64,000 nt of DNA from Escherichia phage moha: sequence record MN850590.1; one strand, given 5' to 3'. Positions 30,654 through 60,263 of the stretch are shown here, one piece after another; position 1 is the first letter of the stretch; the number at the start of each line of letters is the position of its first letter. The notes under the pieces are model-generated. The model did not search any database. It worked only from the letters and a program-made list of their open reading frames with translations, and was not told where the DNA came from. Made by a program: the position numbers and the translations under genes.

Positions 30654-30824
30654 ATGCAAGTTAAATTATTGTACCGTTTATTAAAAAGTGGCGAACACGA
30701 TTGGTATTTGCTTATTAAAACCGATCCGAATTTTTTCTCTGGACAACCATTTACAGTTCGTCCTACTAAACGTCAGCTTCGCAAAGCTAAACGTTCTCAT
30801 CGTAACTTTTATAGAGAATATTGA
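30654..30824 (+). CDS. small basic protein, RPTKRQ-motif family
   Basis: 56 aa ending VRPTKRQLRKAKRSHRNFYREY. Confidence 0.6.
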   Translation: MQVKLLYRLLKSGEHDWYLLIKTDPNFFSGQPFTVRPTKRQLRKAKRSHRNFYREY

Positions 30825-30825
30825 T

Positions 30826-31239
30826 ATGAATATTTCTGAAACTCGCGGTAAATGGTTCAAGATTGTTAAAGAAGATGAAGAACTACAAGTCAAGTTTCCT
30901 GAATTAAAGAAAGATACGATCATCAAGGTAATTGGTACTACTACCGAAGATGGTTATGGCGACCATGGCATTATTGAAGTGATGTTGAACACAGGTGAGA
31001 AACTTTGCATCTATGACCGTGATACTTCTCTTTGGTGCTTCTGGGAATCCCATTCAATAGATGAACTCGAAGAAATTGACCAAGTAGTTTGTGATGGTGG
31101 ACTTGGCGAATTCGAAGGTGAACGTATTTCTTATGCTTTAGCTAAATTAGCCGCCCAAGAAAATAATGACGGTTATGAAGGTAATCTGATGCAAGCCGCA
31201 GCGGAATACATTGAATATTTAGAAAGACGTTTAAGTTAA
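30826..31239 (+). CDS. hypothetical protein
   Basis: 137 aa from ATG 30826. Confidence 0.75.
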   Translation: MNISETRGKWFKIVKEDEELQVKFPELKKDTIIKVIGTTTEDGYGDHGIIEVMLNTGEKLCIYDRDTSLWCFWESHSIDELEEIDQVVCDGGLGEFEGERISYALAKLAAQENNDGYEGNLMQAAAEYIEYLERRLS

Positions 31240-31248
31240 AGGTTTATT

Positions 31249-31428
31249 ATGAAAACTGAACTATTTTATGGCGAAAGAACAAACGGCCAAAAATCCTGGA
31301 AATTTATTATGATTGGGGCTCCAAACAATCCGAACATGAGGACTTCAATCATTTCGGTAACACGTCCTACTAAAAGAATGATTCGACAGTATAAACGTTT
31401 TCATCGAGACTTTTATAACGTTTACTAA
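31249..31428 (+). CDS. small basic protein, RPTKRQ-motif family (not in ORF track)
   Basis: 59 aa, SD aaagg; ends TRPTKRMIRQYKRFHRDFYNVY. Confidence 0.5.
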   Translation: MKTELFYGERTNGQKSWKFIMIGAPNNPNMRTSIISVTRPTKRMIRQYKRFHRDFYNVY

Positions 31429-31430
31429 AT

Positions 31431-31438
31431 TATAAATA
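31431..31438 (+). promoter_or_regulatory. late promoter box upstream of gene 49
   Basis: exact TATAAATA 29 bp before ATG. Confidence 0.5.
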
Positions 31439-31467
31439 CCCTTATCTATATATGGTAAGGGTTTATT

Positions 31468-31941
31468 ATGTTATTATCTGGCAAATTATACAAAGAAGAA
31501 AAACAAAAATTTTATGATGCACAGAATGGTAAGTGTCCTATTTGCCACCGTGAATTAGACTCTGATGTTCAAGGTAACCATCTTGACCACGACCACGAAT
31601 TAAACGGGCCAAAAGCCGGTAGAGTTCGTGGATTACTCTGTAATCTGTGCAACGCAGCAGAAGGCCAAATGAAGCATAAGTTCAATCGTTCCGGTCTTAA
31701 AGGACGTGATGTTGACTACCTCGAATGGCTTGAAGCTCTTCTTGCTTATTTGAAACAAGATTATTCTGATAATAATATCCATCCTAATTTTGTTCCAGAC
31801 AAAACTAAAGAGTTCTCAAGACTAGGTAAAGAGGAAATGATGGCTGAGATGCTTCAAAGAGGATTTGAATATAATGAATCTGACACCAAAACACAGTTAA
31901 TAGCTTCATTTAAGAAGCAACTTAGAAAGAGTTTAAAATGA
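31468..31941 (+). CDS. 49: endonuclease VII (Holliday junction resolvase) gp49
   Basis: 157 aa; CPICHREL..HLDHDHELNG...CNLCN zinc/His-Me region as in T4 endo VII. Confidence 0.9.
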   Translation: MLLSGKLYKEEKQKFYDAQNGKCPICHRELDSDVQGNHLDHDHELNGPKAGRVRGLLCNLCNAAEGQMKHKFNRSGLKGRDVDYLEWLEALLAYLKQDYSDNNIHPNFVPDKTKEFSRLGKEEMMAEMLQRGFEYNESDTKTQLIASFKKQLRKSLK

Positions 31942-59054: not shown

Positions 59055-59084
59055 GTTTACATCTTCCTCTAGGCATGATATGAT
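59055..59084 (+). promoter_or_regulatory. early promoter
   Basis: -35 GTTTACA / 17 bp / -10 TATGAT. Confidence 0.5.
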
Positions 59085-59113
59085 GTACTTACACAAACCA
59101 AGAGGAAAACATT

Positions 59114-59488
59114 ATGAATATGTCTCAAGCAATTTTTACTGCAATCACCGAAAACACAACTGTTGAAGTAGTTTCTCCACTGGCAACCTACGTTATTCTT
59201 GCTCCTAAAACTATTGTATCTCGTATGGAAAACACAGGCAAACGTATCGTACAAATAGTTGGAGCTGGAAATCAAAAACTTGATTATCTACGAACCATCA
59301 AAGCTTACGAACATTTCCAACTCGAAAAAGGTTCTCCTATCCAGGTAGAACTCGTAAATGGTGATATCGTTCGAGCAATGTTCCATCATTTCTATGCATT
59401 GAATGACCCATCTAAAGCGGTTCGTTTAATTGCATACGACGCAAACCAAAACGAAATCAACGCAGATGTATCTAAATTACGTTTTTAA
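59114..59488 (+). CDS. hypothetical protein
   Basis: 124 aa, SD agagga. Confidence 0.75.
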   Translation: MNMSQAIFTAITENTTVEVVSPLATYVILAPKTIVSRMENTGKRIVQIVGAGNQKLDYLRTIKAYEHFQLEKGSPIQVELVNGDIVRAMFHHFYALNDPSKAVRLIAYDANQNEINADVSKLRF

Positions 59489-59517
59489 GTTTACTTCTCC
59501 AGTAGTTGTGTTATTAT
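59489..59517 (+). promoter_or_regulatory. early promoter with 13-bp SD-sequestering inverted repeat
   Basis: -35 GTTTAC / 17 bp / -10 TATTAT; TCTCCAGTAGTTG pairs CAACTACTGGAGA (59526-59538). Confidence 0.6.
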
Positions 59518-59543
59518 AGATCTATCAACTACTGGAGAACAAA

Positions 59544-59861
59544 ATGAAAACCATCGATTGTAAAGCAGAATTTAAGATTTTTTATCAAGGTTCAAGTAGT
59601 TCAGCTAACATCGAAAACATGCTTTGTCCTCCTGAAGAAACAGGAGTTCTGTCTGAAACTGGACGTAAGAAAAACTTGGATCGTGTATTCTTTACTGAAG
59701 ATATCGGTTTAGCAAAGATTTATGCAGGACGAGCAGCACGCTCTTATGGAGGTGAACCACGTCTCTATCGAGTAATTTCTCCGGTAGATGTAGTTCAAAT
59801 GAATGATACTAAAGGCGCTACAGTTTATCACGCTGAATGGGCCTTTTGCGAGGAAATATGA
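59544..59861 (+). CDS. hypothetical protein
   Basis: 105 aa. Confidence 0.7.
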   Translation: MKTIDCKAEFKIFYQGSSSSANIENMLCPPEETGVLSETGRKKNLDRVFFTEDIGLAKIYAGRAARSYGGEPRLYRVISPVDVVQMNDTKGATVYHAEWAFCEEI

Positions 59862-60049
59862 GCAAATTAACTAAAGTTACTTTTATCGGTTGGTTTAAAA
59901 GCGGTGAGATGTTCACTAAAGATATGATGTTATCAGGTGATCGCGAAGAAATCGAGTGGGTTACGGTACAACTTGCTGAAGTAAACAAAACATTAGTTAA
60001 AGCATTTATTAATGACGAGAAAGTTTTTGAAGCTGATTTCAGAGGATAA
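59858..60049 (+). CDS. hypothetical protein
   Basis: 63 aa from ATG 59858 (ATGA overlap). Confidence 0.6.
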   Translation: MSKLTKVTFIGWFKSGEMFTKDMMLSGDREEIEWVTVQLAEVNKTLVKAFINDEKVFEADFRG

Positions 60050-60050
60050 T

Positions 60051-60263
60051 ATGTATTCAACTGTGTTTAAACCATCAACATATGAATTTGCATCAACTAC
60101 ACAATGGAAAGCTCTTATTCTGGAAGGATGGGAACTAATGATGGACTGTGAAGCATCTGAAAAGTTTCCACACGGCAAAGTGGACTTCGTTAAATTTGCT
60201 GTACGTCCGACTAAACGACAGATTCGTCAAGAAAAACGCAAATTTCGAAAAAGTTTAAAATAG
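60051..60263 (+). CDS. small basic protein, RPTKRQ-motif family
   Basis: 70 aa ending VRPTKRQIRQEKRKFRKSLK. Confidence 0.65.
   Translation: MYSTVFKPSTYEFASTTQWKALILEGWELMMDCEASEKFPHGKVDFVKFAVRPTKRQIRQEKRKFRKSLK

What the first reader, a model, noticed from the sequence alone, without database searches (positions are those of the whole stretch)
30654..60263. Dispersed family of small proteins sharing a basic C-terminal (V/T)RPTKRQ(I/L)R..KR..R tail
Three small ORFs at 30654-30824, 31249-31428 and 60051-60263 end in nearly the same basic motif with unrelated N-terminal halves. The tail looks like a nucleic-acid- or ribosome-binding peptide fused to variable heads. Two copies are not in the standard ORF track.
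Basis: seen in the sequence. Interest (0 to 1): 0.5.

Follow-up and report, generated by a model that had tools for sequence, protein, structure and literature searches.

The report
TifA anti-toxin gene plus two paralogs
The three small basic-tailed proteins are real. One is TifA, a known T4-like phage RNA-binding protein that disarms the bacterial ToxN defence toxin, and the other two are uncharacterised short relatives flanking the Lon-protease-inhibitor gene pin.

Summary
The window comes from an RB69-like T-even phage (Mosigvirus). All three ORFs exist exactly as described. RPTKR occurs 3 times in the six-frame translation against 0.05 expected, and only in these ORFs. All three match Pfam DUF7279 across the whole profile.

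- **ORF C (60051-60263)** follows dmd directly. It is gp61.4 = TifA and differs at one residue (S16T) over residues 1-63 from the RB69 TifA shown experimentally to bind RNA and inhibit ToxN.
- **ORFs A (30654-30824) and B (31249-31428)** flank pin. They are 36% identical end to end and show purifying selection (pN/pS 0.04-0.37). B is modelled with the TifA topology, but without TifA's roughly 20-residue β1-β2 insertion.

No further copy exists in the rest of a near-identical genome. Each copy is a presence/absence cassette among about 150 Mosigvirus records. In about 17% of sampled records, recombination between the A and B tails deleted pin and left an A/B chimera.

The family and motif are already known. 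A and B are new, untested members, most likely RNA-dependent inhibitors of other host nucleases.

The parts
60051..60263 (+). Copy C: tifA (gp61.4 ortholog), 70 aa, RB69-type ToxN inhibitory factor A. The RNA-binding tail is coded by 60204-60260.
   Evidence: Translation. Pfam DUF7279 E 3.5e-20 and phrog_2375 E 1.4e-29. Annotated as gp61.4 in mar005P1. 61.4 = tifA (PMC9391042). One substitution (S16T) over residues 1-63 against the RB69 TifA printed in PMC10853763 Table S2; the last residues read KFRKSLK here and FKSLK as printed there. H41, P53, T54, K55, R56 and R59 are all present.
59858..60049 (+). dmd (anti-RnlA/LsoA antitoxin). It lies immediately upstream, with one base between its stop codon and the tifA ATG.
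   Evidence: Pfam Dmd E 5e-21; annotation; sequence.
59490..59517 (+). Sigma-70/T4-early-like promoter site upstream of orf105-dmd-tifA. A consensus match only.
   Evidence: T4 dmd-tifA is driven by an early promoter (PMC9391042).
30654..30824 (+). Copy A: 56-aa TifA-family paralog directly upstream of pin. Its stop codon lies one base before the pin ATG. The tail is coded by 30759-30821.
   Evidence: Translation. Pfam DUF7279 E 2.5e-14 and phrog_3272 E 3e-26. At least 80% identical copies in about 145 phage records, and every record checked is a Mosigvirus. pN/pS 0.16-0.22 in the informative pairs.
30576..30604 (+). Promoter-like site (TTTACA-17-TATGAT with an upstream TG) 50 nt upstream of A, inside the gp49.1-like ORF 30497-30664. 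A consensus match only.
30826..31239 (+). pin (PinA, inhibitor of host Lon protease), bracketed by A and B.
   Evidence: Pfam Inhibitor_I24 E 3.5e-47; annotation.
31249..31428 (+). Copy B: 59-aa TifA-family paralog between pin and gene 49 (RB69ORF087c ortholog). The tail is coded by 31363-31425. It forms a precise cassette of about 190 bp that many relatives lack.
   Evidence: Translation. Pfam DUF7279 E 3e-14 and phrog_3272 E 4e-30. RB69 ORF087c. AlphaFold model pLDDT 87 with E2-9, E15-22, E31-36 and H42-58. pN/pS 0.04-0.37. Indel boundaries.
31438..31462 (+). Intrinsic-terminator-like hairpin plus T-run closing the A-pin-B unit, just before gene 49 (31468-31941).
   Evidence: Annotated as a terminator in ATK47 and G2285. 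Retained in phages that lack B.

Best explanation
**What it is.** The three ORFs are the complete set of TifA-family (Pfam DUF7279) genes in an RB69-like T-even phage.

**Copy C.** C is tifA itself. It is an early gene co-transcribed with dmd. Its product has a three-stranded beta-sheet and a C-terminal basic alpha-helix N-capped by Pro-Thr. The helix binds RNA with little sequence specificity, while the sheet and loop surface, including residue 41, contacts the type III toxin ToxN. ToxN is thereby trapped in a large ribonucleoprotein complex, notably on 16S rRNA, and cannot cleave phage transcripts. This mechanism is shown in the literature for an all-but-identical protein.

**Copies A and B.** They are short paralogs of the same domain. 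They keep the RPTKR...R..KR..R helix and the beta-sheet core. They lack TifA's roughly 20-residue insertion between beta1 and beta2, and their loops are unrelated to TifA's. I infer three things:
- They are expressed as an A-pin-B transcription unit.
- They bind RNA in the same way as TifA.
- They use their diverged heads to tether or occlude a different host target, most plausibly another defence RNase or toxin. With PinA (the Lon inhibitor) they would form a second small counter-defence cassette.

**Population behaviour.** All three copies behave as accessory genes that are gained and lost by microhomology recombination.

**Confidence by step.**
- C = functional TifA: about 0.95.
- A and B are real, selected protein-coding TifA-family members: about 0.9.
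- A and B bind RNA: about 0.7.
- A and B are anti-defence inhibitors with non-ToxN or altered specificity: about 0.4.
For: **Identity of C**
- Position after dmd and gp61.4 annotation.
- 61.4 was renamed tifA.
- One substitution over residues 1-63 against the tested RB69 TifA.
- P53A/T54A and K55A/R56A/R59A abolish RNA co-purification and ToxN neutralisation.
- The trapping-on-RNA model.
- My model of C has E2-6, E27-33, E43-49 and H55-69, with residues 7-26 at low confidence. This matches the published three-stranded sheet plus helix.

**Family membership of A and B**
- Pfam scores of 53 bits against a cutoff of 24.5, over the whole profile.
- A and B are 36% identical end to end.
- The B model has the same beta-beta-beta-alpha order at pLDDT 87.
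- The B and C models both hit the 54-aa Merlin protein A0A0K1LNJ9 (TMt 0.89 and 0.71).

**A and B are real genes**
- pN/pS is 0.04-0.37 where pS is at least 0.16.
- Replacements fall mostly in the heads, and the tail changes little.
- Tight gene spacing and a shared terminator.

**Accessory and anti-defence context**
- Dmd and AdfA lie within 2 kb of C; PinA lies between A and B.
- Presence/absence polymorphism of every copy.
- TifA homologs are target-specific, and the residue-41 loop varies between clades.
Against: - No experiment exists on A or B, and nothing here shows RNA binding or any target.
- The A and B heads are not detectably similar in sequence to TifA heads. Shared fold rests on two AlphaFold models built from a shallow 13-sequence alignment; A itself was not modelled.
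- Foldseek matches for B are not significant (best E 0.018).
- Six non-T-even-type TifA homologs tested in the literature neutralised none of the ToxN or TenpN toxins tried. Family membership therefore does not guarantee antitoxin activity.
- A and B are frequently absent, and A is frameshifted in the RB69 reference. Neither is required for growth.
- The promoter sites are consensus matches only.
Confidence: 0.6

Rival explanations
1. A and B are general small RNA-binding (or rRNA/ribosome-binding) early proteins. They would modulate host or phage RNA metabolism or translation rather than inhibit a specific defence protein. Only C would be a counter-defence factor.
For: - The conserved part is the non-specific RNA-binding helix.
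- The heads are very short (35-38 aa) and lack TifA's beta1-beta2 insertion.
- Several TifA homologs neutralised no tested toxin.
- TifA alone co-purifies with cellular RNA.
Against: - Patchy presence/absence within one genus is typical of accessory counter-defence genes, not of core RNA-metabolism factors.
- Replacements fall mostly in the heads, which suggests an evolving protein-protein surface.
- The genes sit next to pin, and the only characterised family member is an anti-toxin.
Confidence: 0.25
2. A and B are dispensable, decaying duplicates of tifA with no current function.
For: - A carries a +1 frameshift in an A-run in the RB69 reference.
- B is absent from about 43% of sampled Mosigvirus records. 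A is absent from a few. A/B chimeras occur in about 17%.
- T4 has neither copy.
Against: - pN/pS is well below 1 for both genes across diverged alleles.
- The reading frames are intact in all other loci examined.
- B-type copies persist beside pin in about 300 other Tevenvirinae records at 50-60% identity.
- The functional PT cap and basic residues are invariant.
- tifA itself shows the same polymorphism, so patchiness does not imply decay.
Confidence: 0.07
3. The similarity is a DNA- or RNA-level repeat (a regulatory or recombination element), or a chance match, rather than a protein family.
For: The A and B tail-coding segments do act as recombination substrates, producing pin deletions with crossovers in 6-9 nt microhomologies.
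Against: - The motif codons differ at synonymous positions between the copies.
- Profile matches extend over the whole proteins.
- The motif is 60-fold over chance expectation and found only in-frame at the ends of start/SD-equipped ORFs.
- Recombination is a consequence of paralogy, not its cause.
Confidence: 0.02

Closest known systems
TifA (ToxN inhibitory factor A; T4 gp61.4 and the RB69 homolog). Srikant et al. 2022, eLife (PMC9391042); Guegler et al. 2023, NAR (PMC10853763)
   Same: C is this protein:
- Same position after dmd.
- One substitution over residues 1-63 against RB69 TifA.
- Same H41, P53, T54, K55, R56 and R59.

A and B share the Pfam family, the R-P-T-K-R...R..KR..R helix and the beta-beta-beta-alpha topology.
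   Different: - A and B are 56-59 aa, against 70-85 aa for TifA.
- They lack the roughly 20-residue segment between beta1 and beta2.
- Their beta2-beta3 loop has an unrelated sequence, with no equivalent of residue 41.
- They end in ...HR(N/D)FY..Y rather than ...FRK...
- They sit beside pin, not dmd.
- They fall in a different PHROG (3272 against 2375).
- They have never been tested.
Pfam PF23945 (DUF7279); PHROG 3272 and 2375
   Same: All three proteins score far above the Pfam gathering threshold over the full model.
   Different: These are families of unknown function in the databases. The Pfam name does not carry the TifA link. PHROGs split the short (A/B) and long (TifA) types.
Dmd (T4 gp61.5), the phage protein antitoxin against RnlA/LsoA
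   Same: A small early phage protein that neutralises a host RNase toxin. It is encoded next to tifA in the same operon.
   Different: Unrelated sequence and family (PF17587). By established knowledge it binds the toxin directly, without an RNA partner.
RNA-glued viral antagonists and arginine-rich RNA-binding helices (for example HIV-1 Vif-RNA-APOBEC3, cited by Guegler et al.)
   Same: A short basic helix binds RNA, and the RNA is required for the inhibitory protein-protein complex.
   Different: Analogy of mechanism only. There is no sequence or fold relationship, and nothing was tested here.

Membership tests
TifA / Pfam DUF7279 (PF23945) | Profile match above Pfam's gathering score | tested here: met
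   A scores 53.4, B 53.1 and C 72.1 bits against a cutoff of 24.5. Profile positions 2-53 (A, B) or 2-52 (C) of 53 are covered.
TifA / Pfam DUF7279 (PF23945) | Conserved Pro-Thr helix cap followed by a basic cluster (R52, P53, T54, K55, R56, R59 in TifA numbering) | tested here: met
   R, P, T, K, R, then R at +7, K at +10, R at +11 and R at +14 counted from the first R, are invariant in A, B and C and nearly so across 13 family members. The functional importance of these residues comes from PMC10853763.
TifA / Pfam DUF7279 (PF23945) | [quoted passage not shown] | tested here: met
   B model: E2-9, E15-22, E31-36, H42-58, pLDDT 87. C model: E2-6, E27-33, E43-49, H55-69, pLDDT 77. A was not modelled and is inferred from its 36% identity to B. 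These are predictions from a shallow alignment, not structures. There is no PDB relative.
TifA orthologs (ToxN-specific inhibitor) | Synteny: immediately downstream of dmd in the early dmd-tifA operon | tested here: met
   Met for C only: dmd is 59858-60049 and tifA starts at 60051. Not met for A and B, which flank pin.
TifA orthologs (ToxN-specific inhibitor) | ToxN-interface loop carrying residue 41 (H, S or F), conserved among close TifA relatives | tested here: not met
   C has ...EKFPHGK... with H41, as in RB69. A (KTDPNFFSGQP) and B (GAPNNPNMRTS) have unrelated loops. Their heads score no better than shuffles against TifA-type head profiles: A was matched or beaten by 38 of 200 shuffles, B by 2 of 200. 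A and B are therefore family members but not TifA orthologs.
TifA orthologs (ToxN-specific inhibitor) | Binds RNA; neutralises ToxN in vivo | not testable with these tools
   Shown in the literature for RB69 TifA, which is all but identical to C. There are no data for A or B.

The most novel reading that the evidence does not exclude
A and B are a distinct, minimal subclass of TifA-like 'RNA-tethering' inhibitors. Their diverged heads would target host defence nucleases other than the ToxN variants hit by TifA, for example other type III toxins or unrelated RNases. Together with the Lon inhibitor PinA they would form a second, recombination-prone anti-toxin-antitoxin cassette. The basic tail would then be a reusable RNA anchor on which T-even phages evolve new inhibitor specificities.
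Probability: 0.35. Interest if true: 0.55.

Novelty: new member of a known kind. Interest (0 to 1): 0.38.

Why it matters
TifA is one of the few phage counter-defence proteins with an RNA-dependent mechanism. Until now it has been treated as a single gene next to dmd.

Three results here extend that picture:
- Some T-even phages carry up to three family members.
- Two of them are minimal 56-59 aa versions beside the Lon inhibitor pin.
- All three are shuffled in and out of genomes by microhomology recombination.

This gives a ready-made natural panel for asking what sets TifA specificity and whether the basic helix is a general anchor for inhibiting other defence nucleases. The panel comprises A only, B only, the A/B chimera, and genomes with or without tifA.

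On the practical side, it also attaches a functional family (TifA) to genes that are often left unannotated or named only 'hypothetical' in therapeutic-phage genomes.

The core biology of the motif itself is already published, so the finding is a useful lead rather than a surprise.

Tried and rejected
- PADLOC and NCBIfam scans gave no hit for any copy.
- A PDB sequence search gave no relative. The only hit was an insignificant E 0.86 match to eL29, a basic ribosomal protein.
- Foldseek of the B model against BFVD gave nothing at E <= 0.001. The top hits are other small T4-like phage proteins. The C model recovers known TifA homologs from PM2, EcS1 and VR25.
- An IMG/VR locus search with PinA returned only 6 loci, too few for statistics. 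I used the INPHARED phage records instead.
- The word-indexed protein search found only 17 relatives.
- The exhaustive HMMER search found 25 cluster representatives at E <= 0.001. One of them, P0019, is a 1685-aa ankyrin-repeat protein and a spurious repeat match.
- A head-only profile test, meant to show sequence homology between the A/B heads and TifA heads, failed to reach significance. I therefore do not claim sequence homology of those heads, only shared predicted topology.
- A tblastn search of the plasmid collection with B gave no match at E <= 1.
- Literature searches for DUF7279, RB69 ORF087c/089c, or 'paralog'/'49.1' in the two TifA papers gave nothing relevant.
- I considered whether A corresponds to T4 gp49.1. 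It does not. The gp49.1-like ORF is 30497-30664, in another frame. T4 has no pin-adjacent family member.
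Full report
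**1. Source of the window.** All long ORFs lie on the + strand and GC content is about 37%. The region 29500-32500 is 96-98.6% identical to Mosigvirus phages, the RB69-like T-even phages: JK36, WFL6982, JK45 and ATK47. The gene order there is nrdC ... gp49.1-like, A, pin, B, 49 (endonuclease VII), nrdD. The region 59500-61000 matches the same phages. It reads gene 41, two ORFs, dmd, C (annotated 'gp61.4'), imm.1, imm, sp, 61.2. Pfam confirms PinA, endonuclease VII, Dmd, Imm and AdfA (anti-DarT factor A, = 61.2) among the neighbours.

**2. Check of the observation.**
- The RPTKR pentapeptide occurs three times in the six-frame translation. The expectation is 0.05, and 200 shuffles gave a mean of 0.04 and a maximum of 2. 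All three occurrences are in these ORFs.
- An HMM built from the three ORFs plus seven published TifA homologs finds the three ORFs at E 1e-17 to 1e-28. Nothing else scores below E 0.9.
- I fetched the 105 kb of JK36 that lies outside the window and found no further copy. The genome therefore carries exactly three.
- The copies use different synonymous codons within the shared motif, so the conservation acts on the protein.

**3. Family assignment.**
- All three match Pfam PF23945 (DUF7279) over essentially the entire 53-position model, with E values from 2.5e-14 to 3.5e-20.
- PHROGs place A and B in phrog_3272 and C in phrog_2375, with weaker cross-hits between the two.
- A and B are 36% identical from the first residue to the last. 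Either one aligns with C mainly over the tail plus a W-x-hydrophobic strand.
- In head-only tests, the A head matches a B-type head profile better than 999 of 1000 shuffles. The C head does not (153 of 1000 shuffles do as well), and the A and B heads are not significant against TifA-type head profiles.
- 'Unrelated heads' is therefore wrong for A against B. It holds at the sequence level for A/B against C.

**4. Copy C is TifA.**
- T4 gene 61.4, immediately downstream of dmd, was renamed tifA after T4 evolved to escape the type III toxin-antitoxin system toxIN by amplifying dmd-tifA (PMC9391042).
- Over residues 1-63, the window's C differs at one position (S16T) from the RB69 TifA sequence printed in the follow-up paper. 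The last residues read ...EKRKFRKSLK here and ...EKRFKSLK as printed there.
[quoted passage not shown] - ToxN-TifA forms a large RNP enriched in 16S rRNA.
C also has H41, the residue that makes RB69 TifA the stronger inhibitor.
- The motif is therefore the published functional element of a known counter-defence protein.

**5. Copies A and B.** Neither TifA paper mentions paralogs, gp49.x or pin-adjacent copies. Searches for DUF7279 or the RB69 locus names found nothing relevant.
- *Structure.* An AlphaFold2 model of B, built from a 13-sequence alignment, has mean pLDDT 87 with strands 2-9, 15-22 and 31-36 and a helix at 42-58. The same pipeline on C gives strands 2-6, 27-33 and 43-49 and a helix at 55-69. 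Residues 7-26 of C are at low confidence. This matches the published description of a three-stranded sheet plus a C-terminal helix.
- *Differences from TifA.* B keeps the TifA topology. It replaces the roughly 20-residue beta1-beta2 segment with a 5-residue turn, and its beta2-beta3 loop has an unrelated sequence. Both models hit the same 54-aa Citrobacter phage Merlin protein (TMt 0.89 for B, 0.71 for C). Foldseek E-values for such small proteins are weak, however.
- *Charge.* A and B have a net charge of +9 and pI of about 10.5, with most of the charge in the 21-residue tail.
- *Selection.* Both genes are under purifying selection. In pairs with pS >= 0.16, pN/pS is 0.16-0.22 for A and 0.04-0.37 for B. 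Replacements fall mostly in the heads, while the tails change little.
- *Transcription unit.* A overlaps the end of the gp49.1-like ORF by 11 nt and ends one base before the pin ATG. B starts 10 nt after pin. An intrinsic-terminator-like hairpin (31438-31462) follows B. Sigma-70/T4-early-like promoter matches lie 50 nt upstream of A and upstream of orf105-dmd-tifA. These are consensus matches only.

**6. Distribution.**
- A-type copies at >=80% identity occur in about 145 phage records, and every record I checked is a Mosigvirus.
- B-type copies occur in about 54 records at >=80% identity. They also occur at 50-60% identity beside pin in about 300 other Tevenvirinae records, including JS98, IME08, Yersinia and Shigella phages.
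- T4 itself has no copy near pin.
- TifA-type copies occur in 639 records.
- The exhaustive HMMER search of 1.84 billion cluster representatives returned only 25 representatives at E <= 0.001. One of them is a spurious ankyrin-repeat match. The family is narrow and, as far as names go, confined to phages. Plasmids gave no hit.

**7. Structural polymorphism (not part of the original finding).** I sampled 60 evenly spread rows from the 150 Mosigvirus records that match A-pin-B.

| Arrangement | Rows out of 60 |
|---|---|
| Whole module A-pin-B | 20 |
| A-pin without B | 26 |
| Only about 227 bp left (A head joined to B tail, pin gone) | 10 |
| A missing | 2 |
| Other | 2 |

- Sequence-level checks confirm each class.
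- B is a precise cassette of about 190 bp between the pin stop codon and the retained terminator.
- The chimeras have two different crossover points. One lies in the shared TCATCG (348Ecol098PP...SHRDFYNVY). The other lies in the shared ACTTTTATA (SHSML-52-1...SHRNFYNIY). The paralogous tails have therefore served at least twice as substrates for microhomology recombination that deleted pin.
- In the RB69 reference, A carries a +1 insertion in an A-run and is annotated only as a 38-aa fragment.
- tifA is also polymorphic. Only 66 of 144 Mosigvirus records cover dmd-tifA fully. The rest have dmd joined to the imm.1 promoter region.
- The window's phage carries the maximal set of three copies.
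- The database contains duplicate RefSeq and GenBank records, so these proportions are approximate.

**8. Interpretation.**
- For C the mechanism is established in the literature. The basic PT-capped helix anchors the protein on RNA, and the sheet and loop face engages ToxN. The toxin is sequestered on abundant RNA and cannot act as a multiple-turnover RNase.
- For A and B, I infer RNA binding through the invariant helix and a different specificity for the protein partner. Three observations support this. TifA homologs are target-specific and several neutralise none of the tested toxins. The published specificity loop is not conserved outside close relatives. The A and B heads are diverged and still evolving.
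- Their position around PinA, and that of tifA between Dmd and AdfA, fits the 'anti-TA island' idea of Srikant et al.. PinA inhibits Lon, which by established knowledge degrades labile protein antitoxins. This last step is inference, not a result.
- Three rivals are set out in the rival-explanations section: a general RNA-binding role, dispensable duplicates, and a DNA-level repeat. The last is effectively excluded.

**9. Verdict.**
- The 'tail fused to unrelated heads' picture should be replaced by 'one small domain family with a conserved RNA-binding helix and fast-diverging heads'.
- The family and the motif are already known (TifA, DUF7279).
- What is new is modest. This genome has two additional short paralogs bracketing pin that have not been described or tested. 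All three copies are mobile accessory cassettes, and recombination between A and B repeatedly removes pin.
- I classify the finding as a new member of a known kind, of moderate interest.

Noticed in passing
window 30654-31428; loci L015 (901-1071), L016 (901-1071); P0004: About 17% of sampled Mosigvirus records carry a single chimeric gene (A head plus B tail) and have lost pin. Two different crossover points lie in 6-9 nt microhomologies of the paralogous tail-coding segments, which implies at least two independent deletions.
   Followed up: yes
window 31240-31433 versus L005 2216-2290 and L019 1474-1548: B is a precise cassette of about 190 bp between the pin stop codon and a retained terminator hairpin. 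It is absent from about 43% of sampled Mosigvirus records.
   Followed up: yes
window 60051-60263 versus L021 463-575 (phage NBG1): tifA itself is missing from about half of Mosigvirus records (78 of 144), with dmd joined directly to the imm.1 promoter region. The junction resembles a deletion between similar GATTTC / AATTTCG stretches at the ends of dmd and tifA. The direction of the event (loss or gain) was not proven.
   Followed up: partly
L004 (RB69 NC_004928) 6376-6545, minus strand: The RB69 reference genome has an extra A in a homopolymer run (A7 instead of A6) in copy A. This splits the gene, and only a 38-aa TTG-started fragment (RB69ORF089c) is annotated. It could be a real frameshift or a sequencing error.
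   Followed up: partly
window 59858-62011: Three characterised anti-toxin genes lie within about 2.2 kb: dmd (anti-RnlA/LsoA), tifA (anti-ToxN) and adfA (61.2, anti-DarT; Pfam E 1e-119). They are interleaved with imm.1, imm and sp. Two ORFs of unknown function (59114-59488 and 59544-59861) sit just upstream and have no Pfam match.
   Followed up: partly
window 30497-30664: A gp49.1-like acidic 55-aa ORF overlaps the start of A by 11 nt and contains the promoter-like site 30576-30604. It has no Pfam match. ATK47 annotates this ORF but neither A nor B.
   Followed up: no
proteins P0023, P0025, P0027, P0034, P0039: Several distant family members carry a conserved C-terminal extension ending ...(W/F)E(N/D)SWEGIHCD(I/V)xGL. 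This second module is absent from A, B, C and T4 TifA.
   Followed up: no
protein P0014: A 96-aa protein predicted on a 512-bp metagenome contig starts inside TifA (MMDCEASEKF...RKFRK) and continues into unrelated sequence. It may be a read-through or recombinant TifA variant, or an assembly artefact.
   Followed up: no
protein P0019: A 1685-aa ankyrin-repeat protein matched the family profile in seven stretches (NGHEQVALVLLEAKADPN... against NGQKSWKFIMIGAPNNPN...). This is a spurious repeat match, not a relative.
   Followed up: yes
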